Below, one piece after another: positions 4,120 to 56,818 of a stretch of DNA of 64,000 nt; the stretch's first letter is position 1; each line of letters starts with the position of its first letter. Below the pieces are notes generated by a model. The model made no database searches. It saw nothing but the letters and a program-made list of their open reading frames with translations, and had not been told where the DNA came from. Source of the DNA: a virus (taxonomy: Duplodnaviria; Caudoviricetes); IMG/VR virus record IMGVR_UViG_3300032138_000647, positions 57,808-121,807 of that record; one strand, 5' to 3'. The position numbers and the translations under genes are program-made.

Positions 4120-4749
4120 ATGCTATGGTGCAAGGGGCTTTGGTGTAAGCTTGTTTTCCGAGTAATGGAAAGCAAAGCTTATTCTTGGATCATGGACAAG
4201 ATACCTTTTATAAGGTTTTGTCTGTATTATACCTCTACGCATGGTCAAGAATACAAAAGGGGTTATTCTATACTCCGCGCTGGAGACATTATACTAACCA
4301 GAGACAACTGGAAGCTGACCACCTTTCTAATTCCCGGAGAATTTCCGCATGCCGCCCTCTGCGTGTCCAAGGGTGGCGACTTTGAAGTGGCGGAAATGAC
4401 AAGGGTGGGGTTTAGGAAAAGCGAATTCTACGACATATGCCACGAGTCTGACAGGGTGGTCATAATACGTTGCAAGGATTGGGATAAAGATTATATAGAG
4501 AAGGTGGTGGAGAAATGCCTGTCGTTTGATGGGGCAAACTACGACATTAAGTTTGAGTTGGGGGTTAAGGCTCTATACTGCTCAGAATTAGTAGTAGCCA
4601 GCGATCCAGAAAAAAGACTTATAGTTTCTTATGGAGACTTAATCGGCCTAGGCCGCCCCTATATATCACCTATGGGAATTTACGCTGCTAAAAACATAGA
4701 GGTGGTGTGGGATTCTAAAGAGTATAAATGTAGTTTAACAGGGAGATAG
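4120..4749 (+). CDS. Permuted papain-like amidase, YiiX/YaeF (NlpC/P60 permuted) family
   Basis: GDIIL, then H in FPHAAL, then G-x-x-YD...YCSELV: His before Cys, the permuted order. The true start may be a downstream Met. Confidence 0.8.
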   Translation: MLWCKGLWCKLVFRVMESKAYSWIMDKIPFIRFCLYYTSTHGQEYKRGYSILRAGDIILTRDNWKLTTFLIPGEFPHAALCVSKGGDFEVAEMTRVGFRKSEFYDICHESDRVVIIRCKDWDKDYIEKVVEKCLSFDGANYDIKFELGVKALYCSELVVASDPEKRLIVSYGDLIGLGRPYISPMGIYAAKNIEVVWDSKEYKCSLTGR

Positions 4750-4751
4750 CG

Positions 4752-4970
4752 ATGCTCAATATTCTAAAGCGGTTTAAGGTTCAGGCGGCTCTGGTTGCAC
4801 TGTGTGGGTTAACTTGGGGGTTCTGTCCGTGGTTTGCTCAGCTAAGGTCAGCTAATGCCAAAGATTGCGCTTGCGAGACGTGTGTAGCTTCTTGTGAGCA
4901 TATGAGTGGTGACGCATGTGACTGTCACGACAACGGGTGTGGATGCCCAATGTGCGTACCGGCAGAGTAG
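4752..4970 (+). CDS. Small secreted/membrane-anchored Cys-rich, metallothionein-like protein
   Basis: Basic then hydrophobic N-terminus, followed by CACETCVASC...CDC...CGCPMC (9 Cys in about 31 aa). Confidence 0.55.
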   Translation: MLNILKRFKVQAALVALCGLTWGFCPWFAQLRSANAKDCACETCVASCEHMSGDACDCHDNGCGCPMCVPAE

Positions 4971-5028: not shown

Positions 5029-5058
5029 AGAAAGCCCCCTTTCGGGGGCTTTCTTTTT
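5029..5058. terminator. Intrinsic terminator, probably bidirectional, at the convergence of the + and - gene blocks
   Basis: AGAAAGCCCCC-TTTC-GGGGGCTTTCT followed by a T-run; A-rich on the 5' side. Confidence 0.85.
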
Positions 5059-9409: not shown

Positions 9410-10179
9410 TATAGACTCCCAACAAGCTTAGCTTTATGTATCAGTGGTTCGAGTTTGCTTAATGGAATTACATTTTCCCCGTCAGACATGGCTTCGCTTG
9501 GTCGAGGGTGGGTCTCTGCGAACACCCCGTCGTAGTTGAATAAATCGGCAGCTACTAAGTATCTACCCGCTAGAATTGGGTCACCCTGTGTTCCATACAC
9601 GTCCCTAGATCTTTGTGTAGCATGGGTACAGTCTAATATCACTTTATTATAGTGCTTTTTTAGCTCATCTACAATACTAAAATTTACAAATAATTCATGA
9701 TATCCAAAGTTAGAACCTCTGTCACATGCCCAAGCTTCACAGTCAGGGTTGACGGCTTTTATTTTCTCTAGTGAAAAAATTAAGCTGCTTGGCCCCATCC
9801 ACTGACCTTTCTTAACGTTGACTATCGGAAAATGCCTTGCAGCCTCTGTGATGAGATCAGTTTGCCTAGACAGGAAGGCTGGTATTTGGATTACGTCAAT
9901 CAGATCTGCCAACTCTTCTGCTTGCCAGCATTCATGTATGTCTGTAGTAAGCTTAAGGCGGGGATACAAGCTCTTGGCTTCACTCCAAATTTCTTTTGCA
10001 AGATCTAGTCCGGGACCACGCAGGCTGTGCACAGATGTCCTGTTGGCTTTATCAAAGCTAGCCTTCATGTACCAGTCGTCGTCAGGCTCCATCATTGAGC
10101 CTATAGACACCAAGCACTCCATGAAAAGCTCCCTGCTCTCAAGTGAGCATGGACCCAAAATCCAGACCTTATTTTTCAT
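9409..10179 (-). CDS. kdsA: KDO8P synthase (3-deoxy-D-manno-octulosonate 8-phosphate synthase)
   Basis: GPC, KASFDKANRTS, RGPG, TDIHE, QIPAFLSRQTDL, NVKKGQ, RGSNFGY, DCTH, ETHP...SDG. Confidence 0.93.
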   Translation of the reverse strand: MKNKVWILGPCSLESRELFMECLVSIGSMMEPDDDWYMKASFDKANRTSVHSLRGPGLDLAKEIWSEAKSLYPRLKLTTDIHECWQAEELADLIDVIQIPAFLSRQTDLITEAARHFPIVNVKKGQWMGPSSLIFSLEKIKAVNPDCEAWACDRGSNFGYHELFVNFSIVDELKKHYNKVILDCTHATQRSRDVYGTQGDPILAGRYLVAADLFNYDGVFAETHPRPSEAMSDGENVIPLSKLEPLIHKAKLVGSL

Positions 10180-10546
10180 CTATCGAAGCTCCGCCTGTAT
10201 CTATTCTAACAATATCCTTAGCGTCTAGCTCGTCAGTCCAATAAACCTCCAAAGCTTTGGTGTTTTCTAATGCCTCGAATCGGTGCTCTACTTCTGGGGG
10301 GACATCAGAAAACATCCCGTCTGTGAGAATGGTTATGTCTTCCCCCCCATTCTTGTAGATGGTGATCTTAAGCGAGCCTTCCAAGATAATAAACCTATTC
10401 CACTTATTTTTGTGGTAATGGCGAGAGCAGAACCCTCCCTTGTTGGCTTCTATGTAGTGAACTTCGCTACTGCTGTTTTCAAAAAAGCACCTAGTGCTTC
10501 CCCAAAATTTGCCTTGTATTGAACCTGTTAAAGTTTTATGACCCAT
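10169..10546 (-). CDS. Cupin-fold protein (sugar isomerase-like)
   Basis: SRHYH...FIILEG...VPPEVEHRFEA two-motif cupin; overlaps the kdsA start. Confidence 0.75.
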   Translation of the reverse strand: MGHKTLTGSIQGKFWGSTRCFFENSSSEVHYIEANKGGFCSRHYHKNKWNRFIILEGSLKITIYKNGGEDITILTDGMFSDVPPEVEHRFEALENTKALEVYWTDELDAKDIVRIDTGGASIDEK

Positions 10547-10564
10547 GCTGTTGTCCTCTATATC

Positions 10565-11542
10565 TTATGAAAAGTGACGTTTAATATATTCCCACGCTTC
10601 CCCAGACTTCAATTCTTCTTGGTTCCATTGGGCATAGCCCAAGTTGTTGCACCACTGGGTTAGGTCTCCCCTCTTAGGGCTGTTTATTTCGCATATGTCG
10701 TGACTACATTCGTCGTAGGCTACAGAGTCTCTGGAGGTTGTAATTGCGGGGTAGCCACTTAGTAGGGAGTCAATAGCTCCATTGCTGGCACAGGAAACTA
10801 CACACCAACTATCTATGAGATAGTCGCACATTTTAGCCTCCTCTCCGGCTGACACCATGAAGCCTAGTATATCATAGCTTGCAAAGCATGGGAGTACAAT
10901 ACAATTCTCCACAGGCTGGGGCTTGTACCGCTGCATGCGATGGGGCTTATAGATAATTTTCTTATCGGTGTGCTTTCTTATTTCTTTCAGGATAAAGTTA
11001 GACCAATCCAGAAACGATAAGCCTTTTTCTCTTAAGGTTTTTGTTCCTTGGCCGTGCTCGTTTTGGCCCAGAACCAATATGTTGTTTCCACCTTCTGCCC
11101 ACTGCGGAATTGGTATACCTAGCTTATTCCATCTGTCTGATGGGCTGTTGGCAGTGTGTAGAAGTCCGGGACGCTTGATCTCGTTGATGCAGATTGAGAA
11201 AAAATCCCGGTGCCAGACAAAACCCCTGTCCAGTATAACCCTAGGTTTGTTGTTCTTCTTTTGAACATGGACAATGCCTGCCCTAAAGTTTTCTATACCC
11301 TCTTCAAAAGCTCCGCATGGTCTCCCTTCGCTATATGCCATAAGCGGCCCAGTATCATCATCAGAATAATGTTGGTCGGCAACTTGAATCGAAACGTCGC
11401 ACTCGGCTCCCAAAAACTCCAACTGTTTCTGCTCCACAATAGGAATAGGTTGATCTCCGTGGCTCAACACCCCCTCCGCAAAGGCATCCGTCCAAGACCG
11501 CGCCCCTTCCGAAAGCTTGGTTAAGCATACGCCAACAATCAT
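10565..11542 (-). CDS. KpsS/capsule-synthesis-like glycosyltransferase
   Basis: ILVLGQ, IIYKPH, WCVVSCASNGAIDSLLSGYP; paralogue of 16377-17282. Confidence 0.6.
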   Translation of the reverse strand: MIVGVCLTKLSEGARSWTDAFAEGVLSHGDQPIPIVEQKQLEFLGAECDVSIQVADQHYSDDDTGPLMAYSEGRPCGAFEEGIENFRAGIVHVQKKNNKPRVILDRGFVWHRDFFSICINEIKRPGLLHTANSPSDRWNKLGIPIPQWAEGGNNILVLGQNEHGQGTKTLREKGLSFLDWSNFILKEIRKHTDKKIIYKPHRMQRYKPQPVENCIVLPCFASYDILGFMVSAGEEAKMCDYLIDSWCVVSCASNGAIDSLLSGYPAITTSRDSVAYDECSHDICEINSPKRGDLTQWCNNLGYAQWNQEELKSGEAWEYIKRHFS

Positions 11543-37518: not shown

Positions 37519-38730
37519 TTAGAATAGTTCTTTTATGATTCTTCCTGAGTTTGCGATCTTCATAGGGCGACCACTGTTGCTGGTGAACGTTGTCTGCAAT
37601 GAAATGCCGAGTGCGTTACAGACGGAAGCCATAACATCTTGTGAAGAATAGGGTGTCGTTTCAACGCTAGTGCCATCAGGGCTGGTGGCTCCGACAGCCG
37701 TTCCCCCATTGATACCTCCTCCTCCAACAACAACGCTCCAGCTTCTAGCCCAGTGATCTCGCCCAGCATTCCCATTGATGCGAGGAGTACGGCTGAATTC
37801 ACCCATCCAGATAATCACGGTGTCCTTTAAGGTTCCTCTTTGTTCAAGGTCTTCTACTAAAGCACTCATCCCCTGATCTAACATGGGGAGCTTGGTGTCT
37901 TTAAGGGTTGGGAAAATGTTTTGATGATTATCCCAACCTCCAAGCCCCACTTCTATAAAGGGAACGCCAGCTTCAACTAATCGCCTAGCCATTAAGCATC
38001 CCTTTCCAAAACTATTGTCTCCGTATCTTTGTCGTACAGATTCAGATTCTTCAGCGACTTTCGTAGCGCCCATCTGTTTGCTGGTTAGAACATCAAATGT
38101 TTTTTTCAATACTTTCTGATGTTCCTTGGGCATTGAACCCCTGTTAGAATTTATAAAATTATTTTCCAGCATATCTAGCGTTTGCATACGTTGGTAAAAT
38201 CTCTGGTCTATCTTCATGTTTAGATTTCTAATCCTACCATCGCTGTTTACAACAAATGGTGCATACTGAGCGCCCAAAAAACCAGCCCCCATGCTGCCCC
38301 CGTTGACGGAAAAGAACTGAGGTATTTTTATATCCTCATTCTCAAGCTGGTTGGAAATCACAGATCCATAGCTGGGATGATCAATGGTTTGACTGGGAAC
38401 ATACCCCGTATGCATGTAGTAACGGCCTCTGGTATGATCTGCTTCCCGTGTGCTCATAGACCGAATGATTGCCATGTTGTGCATCTGCTTCGCCATCAAG
38501 GGCATGTGCTCGCAGATCTGCACGTCTCCACTGGTAGACATCTCTTTAAATGGGCCACCAGTAGCGGCCTCGGGTTTTAAATCCCAGATGTCCATCGTAG
38601 ATGGGCCACCGCTCATCCATAAAAGTATGGCCGACTTACCATTCTTTTTAATCTCCTCTTGGTTTGCGTTAAGGGCTTGCGTTAAACCTAAGACGCTAGC
38701 TGTGGTAGTTAGGAAGTCCCTTCTTCTCAC
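37519..38730 (-). CDS. DUF1501 family protein with Tat-like signal
   Basis: RRRDFL, GGPS..D.WDLKP, IIRSM, PSYGS, CLMARRLVEAGV, GWD.H, GEFSRTP, GRDHW. Confidence 0.9.
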   Translation of the reverse strand: MRRRDFLTTTASVLGLTQALNANQEEIKKNGKSAILLWMSGGPSTMDIWDLKPEAATGGPFKEMSTSGDVQICEHMPLMAKQMHNMAIIRSMSTREADHTRGRYYMHTGYVPSQTIDHPSYGSVISNQLENEDIKIPQFFSVNGGSMGAGFLGAQYAPFVVNSDGRIRNLNMKIDQRFYQRMQTLDMLENNFINSNRGSMPKEHQKVLKKTFDVLTSKQMGATKVAEESESVRQRYGDNSFGKGCLMARRLVEAGVPFIEVGLGGWDNHQNIFPTLKDTKLPMLDQGMSALVEDLEQRGTLKDTVIIWMGEFSRTPRINGNAGRDHWARSWSVVVGGGGINGGTAVGATSPDGTSVETTPYSSQDVMASVCNALGISLQTTFTSNSGRPMKIANSGRIIKELF

Positions 38731-39974
38731 AGTATTACCTTTCCTTCTCCCTCAAGCAGATATCGTGGACGACCACCTGTGTCTGTCCTCTGGATTTCCT
38801 TGGGAATACCGAAATGGTCAAACAGGGTGGCGGCTACGTCTATTGGCCCAACCTTGTCTTCAGTTGGTACATAAGCTTTGTCAGCTTTGCCAATGACTCG
38901 ACCATGATTATATGCTCCACCAGATAGCAGCATGGGAGTAATTGAAGGCCAGTGGTCACGCCCAGAGTTGCCGTTGAGTCTAGTTCTTCCAAACTCACCC
39001 GTAACTACCAATAGTGTATTTTCAGACATGCCACTCTGGTATATATCCTTAACAAAGGCAGAAAGAGCCTTATCAAGAGGGGGGATCTTGCCCGCTAGCG
39101 CATTCTTTATGTTGCTATGCATATCCCAGCCACCGTAGTGAACCGTAACGAACTTGGTGCCAAACTGAGAAAGCCTGCGAGCCAGCAGCATCTGGTCGCC
39201 AATCCCTCCCTTACCATACATTTCCCGCATGGCTTCAGGTTCTTGGTCGAGATCGAATGCGTCCTTGGCATTTCCAAGGATAACATTGTATGCAGTGTTG
39301 CCGATCTTGGTAAACGAATCCGCGTCTTTAGAGCGAATCTTGTCTAGGTTGTCTAGGGAACTTAGTAAACCCTTTCTTTCCTCAAAGCGAGCAATGGGAA
39401 TTCTAGGAGTTAAGTTATCTTTATTGGATGGGTCAAAGGGCTTGTGTGCCCCGCCCAGAAATGTTGGTTGTTCACCTTCGATCTTACCTTGCTTTACGTA
39501 GGCTGGCATACCATTTGTTGGATGGTTAGAACCAAATACCGCAGAGGCGATAGCGCCATGGCCCGGATACTCAGAGTCAGCGGTGTTCTCTCTCTTGGGA
39601 TTGCGGTGGCCAGTCATCATCCAGTGTGTGGCCTGCCTGTGAGAAGAGTCTCCATGAGAGAAAGAGTTGACAGCCGTAAGGTGATCTCCCTGCTGTATCA
39701 ATTCTTTAAATAAACCACCAAAAGCAAGGCCATTCTTGTGCGTTACTGCCCCTGTTACTGGCCTATGTGTGTCTGGAACCGTGTCTGTGGGGGCGTGGAA
39801 GGTCTCAAACTGTGTTGGCCCTCCACCTAACCAAACCCACACGACAGACTTGTCGCTTGGAAGAACGAATTCTTCTTCCGCAAAGGCTTCGTCAGAAAAA
39901 GGCAGGACACCTAGTCCTGCGCCAAGACCACCAACTCTTAGAAAATCGCGTCTGTTGAAATCAAGATCCAGCAT
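38727..39974 (-). CDS. DUF1501 family protein with Tat-like signal
   Basis: NRRDFLRVG, GGPTQFETF, LLARRL, GGWDMH, GEFGRT, GRDHW. Confidence 0.9.
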   Translation of the reverse strand: MLDLDFNRRDFLRVGGLGAGLGVLPFSDEAFAEEEFVLPSDKSVVWVWLGGGPTQFETFHAPTDTVPDTHRPVTGAVTHKNGLAFGGLFKELIQQGDHLTAVNSFSHGDSSHRQATHWMMTGHRNPKRENTADSEYPGHGAIASAVFGSNHPTNGMPAYVKQGKIEGEQPTFLGGAHKPFDPSNKDNLTPRIPIARFEERKGLLSSLDNLDKIRSKDADSFTKIGNTAYNVILGNAKDAFDLDQEPEAMREMYGKGGIGDQMLLARRLSQFGTKFVTVHYGGWDMHSNIKNALAGKIPPLDKALSAFVKDIYQSGMSENTLLVVTGEFGRTRLNGNSGRDHWPSITPMLLSGGAYNHGRVIGKADKAYVPTEDKVGPIDVAATLFDHFGIPKEIQRTDTGGRPRYLLEGEGKVIL

Positions 39975-52080: not shown

Positions 52081-52108
52081 AAAAAGCCACGACCTATCTG
52101 GCCGTGGC
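52081..52108 (-). terminator. Intrinsic terminator between the lysis-like block and nrdJ
   Basis: GCCACGGCC-AGATA-GGTCGTGGC-TTTTT on the - strand. Confidence 0.7.
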
Positions 52109-52149: not shown

Positions 52150-52515
52150 TTAGTTTTCATTTTCTTCGTCTTGGTTTTCAAATAGATTATCAATTAGTTT
52201 CCGAGTTATCCAGTTAACTATGGCACCCAAGAACACCTGAAACACAAATGGCAAGACCCAAATTGGTACAAAGCTCTTGATCTCGTCTGGATCTAGGTTG
52301 TCTTTTATGTATTGACTGCACTCTTGTTTGAGGGTTTTCTTGTGTTCCTTTGGGTCAGCCCCTGCGGGAGTTCTGAATCTGTCAAAACTAGACCAATCCC
52401 CGCTTACTATTCTAGTCCATTCCTCGCCAAGTTGCAAACATTTTTCTGCAATTTTTTGATGATTCTTGCCTTTGTATTTCGACCCTATCTCTTGTCTCAG
52501 GCCAGCAAATCTCAT
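52150..52515 (-). CDS. Hypothetical protein with C-terminal hydrophobic helix
   Basis: FVPIWVLPFVFQVFLGAIVNWI segment. Confidence 0.55.
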   Translation of the reverse strand: MRFAGLRQEIGSKYKGKNHQKIAEKCLQLGEEWTRIVSGDWSSFDRFRTPAGADPKEHKKTLKQECSQYIKDNLDPDEIKSFVPIWVLPFVFQVFLGAIVNWITRKLIDNLFENQDEENEN

Positions 52516-52847
52516 TATTCCTCCTCATCATAGCTGAAAGGTATGTCTGGGAAGTTGTCCAGTCTGACTACGCCTCCGGTCTCACCCAAAGAGATACCCA
52601 GCACGTCAATTTTTATGGTGAATATTTTTTTTACCGAGACTACGGGCTTATTGCTTATGAAGTCTATCTCTATGTCTCCACCCTCTGTGGATGATATTCT
52701 TATATCTACTGAAGGTTTAGTCTTAAGGGTGTATTTATCAATCTTAAAACCCTTTTTAGATGACAGTTGTGTTAAGACATCGTAGACCTTGCTGAGTTGT
52801 TCCATGAATGGAGTAGACCCTCTCTTTCTTTGAATATCGTATCGCAA
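52515..52847 (-). CDS. Hypothetical protein
   Basis: 110-aa ORF coupled to the downstream gene. Confidence 0.55.
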   Translation of the reverse strand: MRYDIQRKRGSTPFMEQLSKVYDVLTQLSSKKGFKIDKYTLKTKPSVDIRISSTEGGDIEIDFISNKPVVSVKKIFTIKIDVLGISLGETGGVVRLDNFPDIPFSYDEEE

Positions 52848-52864
52848 ATGATACAGTTTATCGA

Positions 52865-53215
52865 CTATTGTTTTTTTTTACAGCTACACTCTCCGTGTAC
52901 ATTTTTACAGTCGCAGTAGGTTTTTTTAGTGTCACATTGGCATCGCCATGTTCTTTCTTGCTCTTGCTCTTCGTGATAGGGACAGGGGGTGGTGTGTCCA
53001 TCACCGTGGGTAATAATACCAGTGCCTTTACAGGCACACTTTTCTGGATCGGGATCTGGCTGAGGAGTGGGTTCGGGGGCTTTGTACTCAGTCTCGTTCA
53101 CTACAAAAGCTACATAGCCTTCATTTCTGAGGTGGTCAAAGTCTGGCACAGAGACTGACGGAGTATTATAACATCCAAAACACAAGAGGGCATAAAAGGG
53201 GAGCAGGTATTTCAT
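52865..53215 (-). CDS. Putative Cys-rich lipoprotein
   Basis: MKYLLPFYALLCFG|C lipobox-like signal, PEPTPQPDPDP linker, CxC.G.G...H...CP and further Cys pairs. Confidence 0.6.
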   Translation of the reverse strand: MKYLLPFYALLCFGCYNTPSVSVPDFDHLRNEGYVAFVVNETEYKAPEPTPQPDPDPEKCACKGTGIITHGDGHTTPCPYHEEQEQERTWRCQCDTKKTYCDCKNVHGECSCKKKQ

Positions 53216-54117
53216 TATATGATCCTTGTGTTTAGTTTGCGAGGCTTGAATCCTTCGTATCCGCTGAAAGCCCAGCAGTCGCCTTGCTTAAGCATTCTAT
53301 TTTCTACCTCTTCTGCGTCAATCCAGAAAGAACCATCTGGCTGGTTGTTCCTTTTGGGGCCAGCGTTCCAGATGCCCCACGAGTTCATGCACAGCACTCC
53401 GGGACGCTTATATTTATCATCGACACCCAATAAGCACATCTGGTGCGCCCACTCGCCTCTGGGTTTAGCAAAGCCTTCTGAGTCCCTTTGCGAGCTAAAC
53501 CCTTGGTCGCTAGCTATAGTGATTGCATAGCCATTAGCAAGTAGATCTCTAGCCTGTTCGTATGAGTCTACTCTTGACACGGTTAGGATAGGATGTTGCT
53601 TAGATATCTCTAGGAGGGTTTTGGGAACTCCGCCTGACGGTTTGCCCCAGTTTCTAGCCTTGGAACCGCTATACTCTCTGAGGTCAACGTTTCCGTACTT
53701 TCCACGGGGTACTGCTCCGTATTCATTGCAGTATCTGGCTGCCCACACTCCGTATGCTCCGTCTCCTCTTAAATTACCTCCACCAATCACAACGCGGCTG
53801 CCAGCATATATATCTTCAGTAGATGTTTCCGCTACCCACTCTTCAAACTCATTGTTAACGAAGATGTCTACGCATTTAGCGGCGTCTACTGCATAGGCTG
53901 CTCCTTGAGCTACGCAGTCCCCCACGGTTTGGAGTCTGATAGGAAACTTTCCCGCAGCCGCCGTGATGTAGTCATACAGTAGGCAGACTTTGTTTTTGCC
54001 CGAACCTTTAAGTGGCCCCCAAGCGTCTCCGAATACGGGAGAGGGAAGAGACTTCATCGAGCTTTCTACGCCATGCGGATTGTTTACCCAACCGCCAAGG
54101 TGTGACAAGTCGGACAT
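53215..54117 (-). CDS. Papain-like cysteine peptidase (clan CA, C1-like)
   Basis: Q..GDCVA (oxyanion Gln plus Cys), WAHQM (His), NSWG.W...G.FWI (Asn); no signal peptide. Confidence 0.88.
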   Translation of the reverse strand: MSDLSHLGGWVNNPHGVESSMKSLPSPVFGDAWGPLKGSGKNKVCLLYDYITAAAGKFPIRLQTVGDCVAQGAAYAVDAAKCVDIFVNNEFEEWVAETSTEDIYAGSRVVIGGGNLRGDGAYGVWAARYCNEYGAVPRGKYGNVDLREYSGSKARNWGKPSGGVPKTLLEISKQHPILTVSRVDSYEQARDLLANGYAITIASDQGFSSQRDSEGFAKPRGEWAHQMCLLGVDDKYKRPGVLCMNSWGIWNAGPKRNNQPDGSFWIDAEEVENRMLKQGDCWAFSGYEGFKPRKLNTRII

Positions 54118-54627
54118 TTATTCAGTCGCCTGTGCTAGAGCCTCAAAAATACCCTGAAACCAATCTCTGTCTTCTTTGGTGTCTAACTTTCTAGGTTCAT
54201 CATAGCCCGCTGCCACAAGATAGTCTGAGACAGCTTGCGTAAAGTCTGGATAAGACTCGCGGTTCCAACCGTAGCTGGTCTGAACTCTCCCAAGAATGGG
54301 GTCAAACTGGCTGGTGTTTTTAATAGACTTGGCGTTGCTGAGATATTCAGCAGCACCCGACAGGAGCTTATAGATCAACTCTCTGTCTTCTTCACTTTCT
54401 ATCTTGATAGATTCATCGTGAACTTTTTTGAGTAGGTCAGCAACTGTTTCTTCCTCAGTCTCCCCTTCACCGTCTGACTCCCCAGCGTTGCTGTTGTCAG
54501 CAATCTGGGGGTCGGACAGCGGCGCGGTGTGCTCTGATACATACAGAGTTCCGAGTATGAGCACCAGAGACCAAGGAATTATAGTGGCTAAGCCAAACTT
54601 TGCTTCAGTAAGGCTTTTGCTAGCCAT
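54118..54627 (-). CDS. Membrane-anchored helical protein (i-spanin-like topology)
   Basis: A single N-terminal TM (LATIIPWSLVLILGTLYV), an acidic linker and a helical domain. Confidence 0.5.
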   Translation of the reverse strand: MASKSLTEAKFGLATIIPWSLVLILGTLYVSEHTAPLSDPQIADNSNAGESDGEGETEEETVADLLKKVHDESIKIESEEDRELIYKLLSGAAEYLSNAKSIKNTSQFDPILGRVQTSYGWNRESYPDFTQAVSDYLVAAGYDEPRKLDTKEDRDWFQGIFEALAQATE

Positions 54628-54649
54628 GTAGATTCCCTCCTGTTTTTAC

Positions 54650-54895
54650 CTATTCCACTGGGGGGACAGGCGTGTCTTCGACATCTTCGATATGGTTGTT
54701 CTTGGCCCACTTGACTGCGGCGTCAAGGAGGATGCTGACAATAGGTACTACTACTATAGTACTAGCACCAAGATCAAGCTCCGCAAGATGCGTACCAAAG
54801 TACGCCAAGGTGGCGGCCAAGCCAACGAGCAGACCATTAATGCCCACCCTTCTGAAGTCGCCAGTATTTAGCGAAAACGCTTTTGAATTTTCCAT
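54650..54895 (-). CDS. Putative holin
   Basis: 81 aa, two TM helices and a charged C-terminal tail; directly upstream of a signal-less hydrolase. Confidence 0.6.
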   Translation of the reverse strand: MENSKAFSLNTGDFRRVGINGLLVGLAATLAYFGTHLAELDLGASTIVVVPIVSILLDAAVKWAKNNHIEDVEDTPVPPVE

Positions 54896-55480
54896 TTAGT
54901 TAACCTCTCTTATTTCGGATACACTTACCAAGAAACCGCCCTGTTCATCACCGTTAAGTTTGTACGGAAATCCTAGCATCCTTACTTGTTTGTCGTCAGA
55001 TGTTTTTAGCTCTTTGTGAAACTTTCTGCTCATGTCGAGGCAGGATTGGAACTCCATAAAAAGCTCTTCCCTTTCCTCTTCGTGAATGTAGGTCAGCCAA
55101 TCGTAATCTTTAACATCAGCTAGGTGTTGACCTGTTAGCTCATAAAAAGGTTCGTTAGTCCACACTACCTTGCCAGCGCTGTCAGTTTCAAAGAGAGCGG
55201 TGGAATTGTAGTGAAGGGAAGCCTTGGTTCTTTGCTCAATAATCTTCTGTCCATGTTCGATTCGTTCACATGAATCGCCCAGCTTGCAAACCACATCCTT
55301 GAGGCTACCCCCACCATTGGTGGTTATCTCCTGCTTAATGGTATCTACTGATTCTGCCAGCCCTTCATGCTTATCTATAAACTTGAGAGTGGGCTTAACC
55401 ACCTTCAAAAATATCCAAGAAATTAGGCCACCAGCAAAACTCAATAAAGTAGTGGTAATGATTACTGATTCTGAGTCCAT
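54896..55480 (-). CDS. Membrane-anchored PAS-domain protein
   Basis: N-terminal TM, coiled coil with NGGGSLKD, then a PAS pattern: LFETDSAGKVVWTNEPFYELTG...DWLTYIHEEER. Confidence 0.75.
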   Translation of the reverse strand: MDSESVIITTTLLSFAGGLISWIFLKVVKPTLKFIDKHEGLAESVDTIKQEITTNGGGSLKDVVCKLGDSCERIEHGQKIIEQRTKASLHYNSTALFETDSAGKVVWTNEPFYELTGQHLADVKDYDWLTYIHEEEREELFMEFQSCLDMSRKFHKELKTSDDKQVRMLGFPYKLNGDEQGGFLVSVSEIREVN

Positions 55481-55498: not shown

Positions 55499-55534
55499 AA
55501 AAATAGGGACGCCCCCGAAGGGGCGGCCCCTTTT
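55499..55534 (-). terminator. Intrinsic terminator after the 242-aa gene
   Basis: AGGGGCCGCCCC-TTCG-GGGGCGTCCCT-ATTTTT (cUUCGg loop). Confidence 0.8.
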
Positions 55535-55549
55535 AGTTTGGAAGTAATT

Positions 55550-56278
55550 TTAAGACTCGAAAATATCTCGACGCTTGTAGTCGCTGTTAACCGGATTAGC
55601 AGCACCAGTTCTGTAGGTGAGTTCACCCGGAATACCAAAGACGCCAGCAGCGCGGGCTGCTTCGTCGTCATGAGCGCCATCTTGGCCAGAACCAGAGATG
55701 AAGTTCGTAGCAACGTTGCCGCCAACTCCACTAGCACCAGTAATCGTTCTTCCCGGTACTCGGTCAGTACTAGGTCTTGCTAGCATATCGTAAGTCATCG
55801 TGCCAATTTGGCGATGGCTGTTAGTCTCATGCACGCCGTCAAATCCAACGCCGTCATGTTCACGACCAACGGTAGTTAGCAAGCCGCCAATGGTAGCGTC
55901 GTTGTTAATCTTGCCAGCAGCAGTGCTTCCTGCTGCTCTGAGAATAAAGTTTCTGTCTCCCGCTCTAGCGTCGGGGAAATAAGCGAGACCCCCGCCTCCA
56001 CCACGTGCTGTGGTAAGGCCATCTGGGTTGTCAGTAGCTTCGTCGGCATTGGGACGACCAGTGGCTGTCTTAGCCACGATTTGAGAACCGTGAGCATAAT
56101 CTACTGCTCCGGCGATGTCGTTGACATCGATATGCTTGGTAATTGCGCTGGCTGCCTGCTCTGCCGTCGAGCCACCACCCTTTACCATAGTGCCGCCATC
56201 GTTTTTCATGGCAGCAGCGACTCTGCCACTGTTTCCGGTAACAACGTTGTAGTTACCTGATGCTGATTGTGTAGCCAT
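55550..56278 (-). CDS. Gly/Ala/Thr-rich protein, probably an abundant late/virion protein
   Basis: Has its own candidate promoter, an AAGGAG RBS and a terminator; low-complexity composition. Confidence 0.55.
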   Translation of the reverse strand: MATQSASGNYNVVTGNSGRVAAAMKNDGGTMVKGGGSTAEQAASAITKHIDVNDIAGAVDYAHGSQIVAKTATGRPNADEATDNPDGLTTARGGGGGLAYFPDARAGDRNFILRAAGSTAAGKINNDATIGGLLTTVGREHDGVGFDGVHETNSHRQIGTMTYDMLARPSTDRVPGRTITGASGVGGNVATNFISGSGQDGAHDDEAARAAGVFGIPGELTYRTGAANPVNSDYKRRDIFES

Positions 56279-56345
56279 AATAGACTCCTTAGAAAAAATT
56301 AGTTAAAAGATTCAAATTCCGGCTCCACAAAAATTCCTTATCGTC

Positions 56346-56361
56346 CTATTACTTTATACAC
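56346..56361 (-). promoter_or_regulatory. Candidate phage late promoter GTGTATA-N3-TARTAG
   Basis: GTGTATAAAGTAATAG directly after the sigma-factor stop codon; matches 3316-3331. Confidence 0.5.
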
Positions 56362-56362
56362 C

Positions 56363-56818
56363 TTATTTGATTCTTTTTGCCAATTGTTGGGCGGATTTTT
56401 TGATTTTTCTCCTTATGGTTTCACGGTTACACTGACGTTTTTCTGCTATTTCTTTGATAGTAAGATTGTTCATCCTGTCCATCAAGAGTTCTTTGTCAGG
56501 GCACCTGTCTATCTCGTCCATAAGGTCTACTGAGAAGAAGTGGTCTGTGGAGTCTGCTAGGTTTGAGTGAAGGGGCTGGTGTTGCCTCTTGTTAAACTTA
56601 ACCTCCCTTATGCACTCAATCCTTACCCCACTATACAGGTATGTGGTAAACTTAGCTCCCTTTTCGGGAGCATAATTCACAAAAGACTTCCACAAAGCAT
56701 TAAGTTTGCAAGTATTTATCTCATCCTCGCTCAGTTGGGATCTAAATGACCCAGCCGCCTTGTTCATAATATTTTGTATATCCTCGTTATTCAAAGCATC
56801 TTCAATTTTCTTGTCCAT
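56363..56818 (-). CDS. Phage sigma70-family sigma factor (regions 2 and 4 only)
   Basis: ALWKS...Y.PEKGAKFTTYLY (region 2) and TIKEIAEK...NRETIRRKI (region 4 HTH). Confidence 0.8.
   Translation of the reverse strand: MDKKIEDALNNEDIQNIMNKAAGSFRSQLSEDEINTCKLNALWKSFVNYAPEKGAKFTTYLYSGVRIECIREVKFNKRQHQPLHSNLADSTDHFFSVDLMDEIDRCPDKELLMDRMNNLTIKEIAEKRQCNRETIRRKIKKSAQQLAKRIK

What the first reader, a model, noticed from the sequence alone, without database searches (positions are those of the whole stretch)
52150..55480. Putative lysis cassette with a membrane-anchored PAS sensor and a papain-like protease instead of a classical endolysin
Seen: a co-oriented block between two terminators (55499-55534 and 52081-52108). 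Its order is a TM + coiled-coil + PAS protein, a 2-TM 81-aa holin-like protein, a single-TM helical protein, a signal-less C1 cysteine protease (Gln/Cys/His/Asn intact), a Cys-rich lipoprotein and two small proteins. Known: holin, cytoplasmic hydrolase and an inner-membrane/lipoprotein pair is the topology of holin-endolysin-spanin cassettes, and PAS domains are ligand/redox sensors. Inference: this is a lysis module in which the protease attacks peptide cross-links or a proteinaceous envelope (plausible for a planctomycete host), and a PAS protein with no output domain sets lysis timing as a sensing antiholin. The block sits downstream of a candidate late promoter and a terminator, so it may be expressed late and weakly by read-through.
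Basis: partly seen in the sequence, partly recalled or inferred. Interest (0 to 1): 0.82.

Follow-up and report, generated by a model that had tools for sequence, protein, structure and literature searches.

The report
Protease-based phage lysis-like cassette with PAS protein
A large uncultured aquatic phage has no recognisable cell-wall-cutting enzyme of the usual kinds in its conserved genes. Instead it carries a widely conserved block of membrane and exported proteins around a latent papain-type protease, which is probably how it opens the host envelope; the sensor role of the PAS protein at its head is unproven.

Summary
Seven tightly coupled minus-strand genes lie between two good terminators, downstream of a phage promoter motif shared with structural genes.

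- **Protease:** the 300-aa protein has a papain (C1) fold. Xylellain is the best match (Z 22.2). Gln63/Cys68/His225/Asn245/Trp247 are invariant, and the N-terminus overlays zymogen prosegments.
- **PAS domain:** real at family level.
- **Spanin pair:** not supported. The 169-aa protein has a compact exported helical bundle. The 'lipoprotein' is a shortened member of a signal-peptide, Cys/His-knuckle and WCxPC-thioredoxin family whose lipobox Cys is not conserved.
- **Site of action:** about 1 in 6 of the relatives inspected carry Tat, Sec-anchor or lipoprotein signals, so the family acts outside the cytoplasm.
- **Position:** the set (exported partner, peptidase, exported thioredoxin) recurs in unrelated phages directly before the terminase, including a prophage in a planctomycete chromosome.
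- **Other endolysins:** nine endolysin families were not found in this phage or in a 98%-complete relative. This phage alone has a permuted NlpC/P60 gene at the end of its late operon.

Best reading, about 50%: a protease-based lysis cassette. A PAS antiholin role is about 20%.

The scan has noted this cassette on other DNA before, including PAS and intein versions. No paper on it was found.

The parts
56340..56362 (-). Candidate phage late-type promoter motif GTGTATA-N4-ARTA, about 82 nt upstream of the 242-aa gene
   Evidence: exactly 5 occurrences in the 121.8-kb record, all intergenic and co-oriented with the next gene. Four are in the structural module.
55550..56278 (-). 242-aa Gly-rich protein of unknown function with its own late-type promoter and terminator. 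Probably an abundant late protein; it is conserved in front of the cassette in relatives.
   Evidence: No Pfam or PHROG hit.
55505..55534 (-). Intrinsic terminator between the 242-aa gene and the cassette. Only about 25 nt, holding the ribosome-binding site, separate it from the PAS gene start, so the cassette must be read by read-through or from promoters further upstream.
54896..55480 (-). 194-aa membrane-anchored PAS protein: N-terminal TM (about 6-26), a highly conserved juxtamembrane linker (TNGGxSLKD...C71...IIEQRTKA) and a PAS domain (about 90-190). By the positive-inside rule the PAS domain is cytoplasmic (inference).
54650..54895 (-). 81-aa two-TM protein, the holin candidate. TM1 is weakly hydrophobic and Gly/Ala-rich, TM2 contains a conserved Pro and Asp, and the short C-tail is charged. 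It follows the PAS gene with no gap.
   Evidence: No Pfam or PHROG family. Conserved at this position in nearly all related loci that reach it.
54118..54627 (-). 169-aa exported partner: N-terminal anchor, a disordered acidic linker and a compact 5-helix bundle (62-168). Homologues in relatives carry a signal anchor or a lipoprotein signal.
53215..54117 (-). 300-aa xylellain-type papain-fold (C1-like) cysteine peptidase without a signal peptide. Catalytic residues are Q63, C68, H225, N245 and W247. Residues 1 to about 40 overlay the cleft-filling end of C1A prosegments.
52865..53215 (-). 116-aa signal-peptide protein with an EGYVAF motif and an invariant CxCxG...HGDGHxTxC...CxC knuckle. It is the short form of a family that in most relatives ends in a WCxPC thioredoxin domain, which is absent here.
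52515..52847 (-). 96-110-aa soluble protein of unknown fold, conserved after the peptidase in most related loci.
   Evidence: No family hit.
52150..52515 (-). 121-aa tail-anchored membrane protein (C-terminal TM about 84-104). Similar tail-anchored proteins close the cassette in remote phages.
52086..52108 (-). Intrinsic terminator ending the cassette, before the class II ribonucleotide reductase gene.

Best explanation
The block is this phage lineage's copy of a widespread, undescribed envelope-attack (most likely lysis) cassette. Its effector is a latent xylellain-type papain-fold cysteine peptidase. Proposed course:

1. Shown: the operon lies behind a late-type promoter and a terminator. 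Inferred: it is made late and at a low level.
2. Inferred from the fold: the peptidase accumulates in the cytoplasm in a self-inhibited form, with its first ~40 residues lying where C1A prosegments block the cleft.
3. Inferred from topology and position only: the 81-aa two-TM protein permeabilises the inner membrane and lets the signal-less enzyme reach the periplasm.
4. Inferred: once there, it meets the exported 5-helix-bundle partner encoded just upstream and cuts a peptide target in the envelope. The target could be wall cross-links, wall-to-outer-membrane tethers or envelope proteins; the substrate is unknown.
5. Relatives reach the same place by Tat, Sec-anchor or lipoprotein signals, and pair the enzyme with an exported WCxPC thioredoxin. 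That thioredoxin would keep the lone catalytic Cys reduced in the oxidising periplasm. This phage keeps only the Cys/His-knuckle part of that partner.
6. Speculative: the membrane-anchored cytoplasmic PAS protein is a lineage-specific regulator of the two-TM protein or of timing.
For: (1) Fold and active site: xylellain Z 22.2. Zymogen forms align from model residue 1 with 231-247 residues, whereas mature enzymes align only from residue 28-41 with 198-216 residues. The Q/C/H/N/W set is invariant.
(2) Extracytoplasmic action: of the 150 best of 1832 cluster representatives, at least 8 have clear twin-arginine signals and about 14 have N-terminal TM or lipoprotein signals.
(3) Conserved cassette: the order 81 aa - 169 aa - peptidase is kept wherever the locus reaches it in 45 related viral loci, and the 110-aa gene follows in most of them. 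Remote phages keep the set exported protein - peptidase - thioredoxin - tail-anchored protein, and L069 also has a small 2-TM protein just upstream.
(4) Position: directly upstream of a GpA-type terminase in L071, and of Terminase_6N plus a lambda-family portal in a prophage on a 1.8-Mb planctomycete contig, L079. This is where lambdoid phages keep S-R-Rz (established knowledge).
(5) No rival enzyme in the lineage: six-frame HMM searches of G000 and of G001 (162.7 kb, 98% complete), G002 and G003 found no Phage_lysozyme, Amidase_2, SLT, Peptidase_M15_4, NLPC_P60, Peptidase_M23, GH19, GH108 or Amidase_3. A Pfam scan of 39 further G001 ORFs found none. A ClpP-type protease next to the terminase fills the prohead-protease role.
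(6) Some phage C1-like proteins in BFVD are annotated with peptidoglycan-binding or muramidase parts.
(7) Cellular homologues exist: a TM-anchored 'C1 family peptidase' of Thermogemmata fonticola lies among housekeeping genes. Endolysins are commonly related to host autolysins.
(8) A late-type promoter followed by a terminator lies ahead of the block.
Against: There is no experimental evidence of any kind.
- C1 peptidases are known to cut ordinary L-peptide bonds, not peptidoglycan stems. No wall-binding domain is present.
- The 81-aa protein belongs to no known holin family.
- No spanin equivalent was identified.
- The peptidase is unusually conserved for a lysis gene (59-92% identity over the 120 listed homologues) and hosts inteins, which is more typical of core replication or packaging genes.
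- This phage has a second candidate wall hydrolase, Peptidase_C92, at the very end of the late operon.
- A lone signal-less homologue sits among cellular genes of a Bacteroidota genome, so a cytoplasmic role is possible.
- The endolysin search covered nine families and part of the ORFs, and two of the HMM searches had no positive control.
- The record is only 73% complete.
Confidence: 0.5

Rival explanations
1. The cassette is an envelope-remodelling module that acts in the periplasm during infection but not for lysis. Examples: removing or clipping receptors or envelope proteins (superinfection exclusion), or preparing the envelope for the products of the phage's large glycan-synthesis cluster.
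For: Export signals in relatives and the exported partners show a periplasmic site of action but not its purpose. High conservation and intein carriage are unusual for lysis genes. Constitutively Tat- or Sec-exported forms would need extra control to avoid premature lysis.
Against: The position before the terminase in remote phages, and the absence of any other lysis enzyme in a 98%-complete relative, would leave these phages with no lysis system at all. The signal-less form beside a small 2-TM protein fits holin-dependent release better than steady export.
Confidence: 0.2
2. The peptidase works in the cytoplasm, for example in host takeover, cleavage of host defence proteins or processing of phage proteins. 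The neighbouring membrane proteins tether or regulate it.
For: The window enzyme and all its close relatives lack any signal. A signal-less 45%-identical homologue lies among ordinary cellular genes in a Bacteroidota chromosome. The closest structure, xylellain, is a bacterial C1 enzyme with a cleft-covering N-terminus. No structural disulfides are conserved: only C68 is invariant.
Against: About one in six of the relatives inspected are exported, and an exported thioredoxin and an exported partner are conserved next to the gene. This makes little sense for a cytoplasmic protease. A ClpP-type prohead protease already exists in the lineage.
Confidence: 0.12
3. In this particular phage, lysis is carried out by the Peptidase_C92 (permuted NlpC/P60) gene and the adjacent 72-aa signal-peptide Cys-rich gene at the end of the late operon (window 4120-4970). 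The cassette studied here has another or a redundant role.
For: PF05708 hit, E 1.4e-13, 51.7 bits against a cut-off of 27. The NlpC/P60 superfamily includes many wall endopeptidases (established). The gene sits last in the late operon before a bidirectional terminator, a classic place for lysis genes.
Against: G001 has no homologue, and the pattern scan of viral contigs, which finds close relatives only, found none. It therefore cannot be the lineage's lysis system. The YaeF/YiiX branch has no proven muralytic member (my own knowledge). No holin-like neighbour is present: the 72-aa protein looks like a secreted Cys-rich peptide.
Confidence: 0.1

Closest known systems
Lambda-type holin-endolysin(-spanin) lysis cassettes (S-R-Rz/Rz1), and SAR-endolysin/pinholin systems (phage 21 S21/R21, P1 Lyz)
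   Same: A small two-TM membrane protein lies next to a hydrolase. The same enzyme family has both signal-less and export-signal versions. In remote relatives the cassette lies just before the terminase. Late expression is plausible. The weakly hydrophobic Gly/Ala-rich TM1 recalls pinholin S21. Thiol chemistry beside a Cys enzyme recalls the disulfide-caged P1 Lyz (my own knowledge).
   Different: The enzyme is a C1-type protease, not a muramidase, amidase, transglycosylase or known wall endopeptidase. There is no recognisable spanin pair. Extra conserved partners are present (exported helical bundle, exported thioredoxin, tail-anchored protein). No member of the family has been tested.
Xylellain (Xylella fastidiosa C1A peptidase, PDB 3OIS) and C1A zymogens (procathepsins B/K/L, propapain)
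   Same: The best structural match is xylellain (Z 22.2, 237 residues, 19% identity). The Gln/Cys/His/Asn/Trp order is the same. An N-terminal segment overlays the cleft-filling part of prosegments.
   Different: The window protein has no Pfam PF00112 hit. The C1A disulfides are not conserved. The prosegment-like part is very short (about 40 aa). The context is phage-encoded, with membrane partners.
Mycobacteriophage LysA N-terminal cysteine-peptidase domains and CHAP/NlpC-P60 endolysin domains (clan CA wall peptidases)
   Same: They are papain-superfamily Cys-His enzymes used by phages against the cell wall. This shows that the clan can do the job.
   Different: These are different families. 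Structural similarity to LysA entries is only partial (TM 0.22-0.27). Those enzymes carry wall-binding domains and have proven activity.
T4 RI/T and other antiholin-holin pairs
   Same: A membrane-anchored protein is encoded immediately before, and translationally abutting, the putative holin. The position is filled by non-homologous proteins in related phages, as is common for lysis regulators.
   Different: Known antiholins have no PAS or other ligand-sensor domain. T4 RI acts through a periplasmic domain, whereas here the PAS domain is predicted to be cytoplasmic. No interaction has been shown.
Periplasmic DsbG/DsbC protection of single-Cys L,D-transpeptidases in E. coli (my own knowledge: Depuydt et al., Science 2009)
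   Same: A periplasmic thioredoxin-fold reductant keeps the lone catalytic Cys of an exported enzyme from oxidation. This gives a rationale for the conserved pairing of peptidase and WCxPC thioredoxin.
   Different: Here the thioredoxin is phage-encoded and fused to a Cys/His knuckle, and its electron source is unknown. In this window the thioredoxin domain itself is missing.

Membership tests
Papain family (MEROPS C1 / Pfam PF00112) | Papain fold (L and R lobes) | tested here: met
   AF2 model pLDDT 88, pTM 0.90. Xylellain Z 22.2, rmsd 3.2, 237 aligned, and more than 300 C1 chains with Z>=8.
Papain family (MEROPS C1 / Pfam PF00112) | Catalytic Gln, Cys, His, Asn (and Trp) in papain order, and conserved | tested here: met
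   Q63, C68, H225, N245 and W247 are invariant in 32 homologues, with an NSWG motif. They are kept across intein-containing forms.
Papain family (MEROPS C1 / Pfam PF00112) | Sequence match to the family HMM above its cut-off | tested here: not met
   The window protein has no Pfam hit at E<=1. Relative P0331 has only a 'weak' precomputed PF00112 hit. NCBI names relative WP_194537195.1 'C1 family peptidase'.
Papain family (MEROPS C1 / Pfam PF00112) | Conserved structural disulfides of secreted C1A enzymes | tested here: not met
   Only the catalytic C68 is an invariant Cys in alignment A1.
Papain family (MEROPS C1 / Pfam PF00112) | Inhibitory N-terminal prosegment (zymogen) | tested here: inconclusive
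   Proforms align from model residue 1 with 25-35 more residues than mature forms, which align from residue 28-41. Coordinates of the cleft could not be inspected.
Phage holins | Small membrane protein with one or more TMDs and a charged C-terminus, encoded next to the lytic enzyme | tested here: met
   81 aa, two hydrophobic segments and a charged tail. It lies two genes upstream of the peptidase.
Phage holins | Membership of a described holin family | tested here: not met
   No Pfam hit. Only PHROG 37722 (unknown function) at E 0.04. All 32 homologues are unnamed and without Pfam domains.
Phage holins | Timed lethal permeabilisation of the inner membrane | not testable with these tools
   Needs expression or complementation experiments.
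Two-component spanins (Rz/Rz1 type) | i-spanin: N-terminal TMD followed by an extended periplasmic coiled coil | tested here: not met
   The 169-aa protein is modelled as a compact 5-helix bundle (62-168, pLDDT >90) after a disordered linker. Homologues in L037, L024 and L049 have lipoprotein signals instead of a TMD.
Two-component spanins (Rz/Rz1 type) | o-spanin: small outer-membrane lipoprotein with a conserved lipobox Cys, with its gene adjacent to or embedded in the i-spanin gene | tested here: not met
   The lipobox-like Cys of the 116-aa protein is not conserved in 14 homologues, which are 140-250-aa signal-peptide proteins, mostly with a thioredoxin domain. The gene is separated from the 169-aa gene by the peptidase.
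PAS domain (Pfam clan PAS) | Match to PAS HMMs | tested here: met
   The window protein scores 25.2 bits against a cut-off of 25.6 (PAS_3) and 22.1 against 22.6 (PAS). At family level, 17/25 members hit PF00989, 16/25 PF08447 and 14/25 PF13426 at E<=1e-3.
Antiholins | Binds and inhibits the cognate holin until a signal is received | not testable with these tools
   Only adjacency and translational abutment are seen. Needs two-hybrid or co-expression tests.
Canonical endolysin families (GH24, Amidase_2/3, SLT, M15, M23, NlpC/P60, GH19, GH108) | Presence of such a gene elsewhere in the phage or in near-complete relatives | tested here: not met
   None found in G000-G003 by six-frame HMM search (GH19 and GH108 lacked a positive control). 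None among 39 G001 ORFs scanned. Exception: a Peptidase_C92 gene in G000 only.
Thioredoxin superfamily (for the 116-aa protein) | Thioredoxin fold with a WCxPC active site | tested here: not met
   Present in homologues (PF00085, E 1e-6 to 7e-9; WCGPC/WCAPC) but missing from the window protein, which ends after the Cys/His knuckle.

The most novel reading that the evidence does not exclude
Lysis by this phage group is sensor-gated. A membrane-anchored cytoplasmic PAS protein reads a host signal (redox, energy state or a metabolite). Through the adjacent two-TM protein it decides when a latent papain-type protease is let into the periplasm. The protease, not a muralytic enzyme, then opens the envelope. 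This would be both a new enzymatic route of phage lysis and the first antiholin with a ligand-sensor domain.
Probability: 0.15. Interest if true: 0.88.

Novelty: new variant of a known kind. Interest (0 to 1): 0.64.

Why it matters
If the reading is right, a very large set of uncultured phages bursts its hosts with a protease-based system outside the known endolysin classes. The peptidase family has 1832 clusters at 50% identity and not one member among 50,697 deposited phage genomes. The system has its own exported partner and redox helper.

This would matter in four ways:
- It would explain why annotation pipelines find no lysis genes in these genomes.
- It would add a new enzyme class to the lysin toolbox.
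- It would point to an unknown weak point in the envelope of hosts such as planctomycetes.
- The PAS-bearing versions would offer a tractable case for asking whether phages time lysis by sensing host physiology.

Tried and rejected
- **Complex prediction of the PAS protein with the 81-aa protein:** no verdict (score 0.00, mark 0.32, partner poorly folded). This is neither for nor against binding.
- **Sequence searches of the peptidase profile and the PAS profile against PDB:** nothing usable.
- **tblastn against 50,697 GenBank phage records:** no match for the window peptidase or for two export-signal relatives.
- **ESM Atlas look-ups for the 169-aa and 96-aa proteins:** nothing usable.
- **Fold search of the 169-aa model:** only generic helical bundles, Z<=5.6 and Foldseek E>0.5.
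- **hhalign of the 169-aa family against the exported proteins that precede the peptidase in remote phages:** not significant, although the C-terminal patterns look alike. I therefore claim positional analogy, not homology.
- **Prohead-protease idea for the peptidase:** dropped, because a ClpP-type protease sits beside the terminase in G001.
- **Host from MAG labels:** inconsistent (SAR202, Crocinitomicaceae, Aureispira, Rubrivivax).
- **Scan for relatives of the C92 gene in viral contigs:** none found.
- **Naming a phylum directly, or drawing 'relatives' of a virus record:** not possible.

Full report
**Setting.** The window is the right-hand 64 kb of a 121,807-bp IMG/VR virus record, estimated 73% complete.
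- The record has a plus-strand structural module with giant proteins. Its minus-strand module holds replication, nucleotide-metabolism and glycan-synthesis genes.
- Cultured relatives are only distant: terminase 27% identical to Bacillus siphophages, major head protein 21% identical to phage G.
- A related record, G001, is 162,690 bp and 98% complete. I fetched it and used it as a reference.

**Observation.**
- Both terminators are real.
- The upstream terminator is followed by only about 25 nt, including the ribosome-binding site, before the PAS gene. The block therefore has no room for its own promoter and must be read through.
GTGTATA-N4-ARTA occurs exactly five times in the whole record. 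Each copy is intergenic and 37-82 nt upstream of a co-oriented gene. Four are in the structural module; the fifth precedes the 242-aa Gly-rich gene just before the block.

**The protease.**
- Pfam and PHROGs see nothing. The family is nevertheless large and well conserved: 238 hits in the word-indexed search, of which the 120 best listed are 59-92% identical, and 1832 50%-identity cluster representatives at E<=1e-3 in the exhaustive search, 791 of them below 1e-30.
- An AlphaFold model built on 32 homologues is confident (pLDDT 88, pTM 0.90). It is a papain fold: xylellain Z 22.2, and then dozens of C1A enzymes.
- Q63, C68, H225, N245 and W247 are invariant. No other Cys is conserved, so the C1A disulfides are absent.
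- Zymogen structures align from model residue 1 and cover 25-35 more residues than mature enzymes, which start at residue 28-41. The N-terminus is therefore predicted to lie like the cleft-filling end of a prosegment, suggesting a latent enzyme. This is an inference from alignment ranges.

**Where the family acts.**
- Of the 150 best representatives, at least eight start with textbook twin-arginine signals. About fourteen start with a TM anchor or lipoprotein signal followed by a Pro-rich linker.
- One anchored member is annotated by NCBI as a C1 family peptidase of the cultured planctomycete Thermogemmata fonticola and lies among housekeeping genes. Cellular homologues therefore exist.
- The family thus works outside the cytoplasm in many cases. 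The window enzyme, which has no signal, would need a membrane lesion to get there.

**The neighbours.**
- In 45 related viral loci the order 81 aa - 169 aa - peptidase is kept wherever the locus reaches those genes, and the 110-aa gene follows in most of them.
- The 169-aa protein is an N-terminal anchor, a disordered acidic linker and a compact five-helix bundle with no informative structural neighbour. Its homologues carry either an anchor or a lipoprotein signal. That is not an i-spanin architecture.
- The 116-aa 'Cys-rich lipoprotein' aligns with 140-250-aa signal-peptide proteins. They share an EGYVAF motif and an invariant CxCxG...HGDGHxTxC...CxC knuckle, and most end in a thioredoxin domain with WCGPC or WCAPC.
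- The window's sublineage has lost the thioredoxin domain, and the lipobox-like Cys is not conserved. The protein is therefore not an o-spanin.
- Most relatives also have a 111-135-aa two-TM gene after the small two-TM gene; it is absent here.

**The cassette elsewhere.** Very different phages repeat the theme.
- One contig has a small two-TM protein, an exported Ig-plus-helical protein, a Tat-peptidase, an exported thioredoxin and a tail-anchored protein (L069).
- Another has the same set directly upstream of a GpA-type terminase (L071; L061 looks similar).
- A 1.8-Mb contig of a planctomycete genome carries a prophage with this order: signal-peptide helical protein, TM-anchored peptidase, signal-peptide thioredoxin, terminase, lambda-family portal.
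- The position before the terminase is where lambdoid phages keep their lysis genes (established knowledge).

**Is there another endolysin?**
- Six-frame HMM searches of this record, G001 and two further relatives found none of nine common endolysin families. Two of these searches lacked a positive control.
- Pfam scans of 39 otherwise unassigned G001 ORFs found nucleotide-metabolism, repair and sigma-like proteins, plus a ClpP-type protease next to the terminase, but no lysin.
- One caveat is specific to this phage. The last genes of its late operon encode a Peptidase_C92 protein (permuted NlpC/P60, E 1.4e-13) and a 72-aa secreted Cys-rich peptide. G001 has no homologue, and the close-relative scan of viral contigs found none.

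**The PAS protein.**
- The domain call is borderline for the window protein but clear for the family.
- The most conserved part is the juxtamembrane linker (TNGGxSLKD, invariant C71, IIEQRTKA). A second invariant Cys (C147) lies inside the PAS domain.
- The positive-inside rule puts the PAS domain in the cytoplasm (inference).
- In many relatives the same position holds unrelated 90-110-aa TM plus coiled-coil proteins. The PAS protein is therefore a lineage-specific occupant of a regulator-like slot. Nothing here shows that it binds the 81-aa protein.

**Host.**
- MAG labels disagree with each other.
- The phage's Tat-type DUF1501 protein is 52-54% identical (E down to 1e-142) to proteins of Planctomycetota and hits 78 of 151 sampled genomes. 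In Bacteroidota the figures are 31-34% identity and 7 of 151 genomes.
- The peptidase profile hit 4 of 300 other Planctomycetota, 0 of 300 other Pseudomonadota and 1 of 300 other Bacteroidota.
- A planctomycete host is plausible but not shown. Verrucomicrobiota were not tested.

**Verdict.**
- The most economical reading is a protease-based lysis or envelope-attack cassette (about 0.5).
- Rivals are a non-lytic periplasmic remodelling role (0.2), a cytoplasmic protease role (0.12) and lysis by the C92 gene in this particular phage (0.1).
The antiholin part remains open (about 0.2).
- After I had found the intein, the thioredoxin partner and the export signals myself, the scan's notebook showed that the same cassette had been noted and followed up on at least ten other genomes, including PAS-bearing and intein-bearing versions. 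Those are AI notes and I do not count them as evidence.
- Literature searches found no paper describing a PAS antiholin. The endolysin searches (papain-like; Tat signal) turned up nothing I recognised as describing this system from titles and abstracts; I did not open the papers.

Noticed in passing
L037:8684-10711, L039:8530-10605, L042:7045-9084, L047:3243-5270, L049:8732-10744 (relatives of window 53215-54117): Inteins (Hint plus LAGLIDADG) are inserted exactly at the catalytic cysteine of the peptidase. The N-extein ends in ...IGD, the intein starts with Cys and ends in HN or SN, and the +1 residue is the protease nucleophile C68. There are two unrelated intein types at the same site. In the exhaustive search many family members of 630-1200 aa match in 2-3 pieces, with breaks near residues 56-64 and 226-251, which suggests a second site near His225/Asn245.
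   Followed up: partly
window 4120-4970 (+): The last genes of the late operon are a 209-aa Peptidase_C92 (permuted NlpC/P60, PF05708, E 1.4e-13) and a 72-aa signal-peptide protein with 12 Cys, followed by a bidirectional terminator at about 5033-5058. Both are absent from the 98%-complete relative G001. They may be an accessory wall or lipid hydrolase.
   Followed up: partly
genome positions 4365, 11453, 22628, 61124 (+) and 114167 (-); the last two are window ~3317 and ~56360: The promoter-like motif GTGTATA-N4-ARTA occurs five times, always intergenic and 37-82 nt before a gene, and marks a late regulon. The record and G001 also encode small sigma-like proteins (window 56363-56818; L052:10758-12039) that could read it.
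   Followed up: partly
window 37519-38730 (-) and neighbour 38727-39974: The tandem DUF1501 genes are most similar to Planctomycetota proteins (52-54% identity, E to 1e-142; 78/151 genomes hit) and much less similar to Bacteroidota proteins (31-34%; 7/151). This is a host hint.
   Followed up: partly
L072 (Thermogemmata fonticola contig, peptidase at 10001-11191); L077:18300-19235 (Bacteroidota genome G775): Cellular homologues of the phage peptidase lie among housekeeping genes. One is TM-anchored, in a cultured planctomycete. The other is signal-less and 45% identical, in a Bacteroidota chromosome. Their cellular role is unknown.
   Followed up: partly
L052:14124-14732 and L052:14732-16717 (G001): A ClpP-family protease gene lies immediately before the large terminase gene and is the likely prohead protease of the lineage. 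This part is missing from the incomplete record that holds the window.
   Followed up: no
P0377 (L062:8001-9740): In a temperate phage context (integrase and excisionase nearby), the peptidase is fused in one 579-aa protein. The order is N-terminal anchor, peptidase, a second TM and a C-terminal Cys-containing thioredoxin-like region. This links the two functions physically.
   Followed up: no
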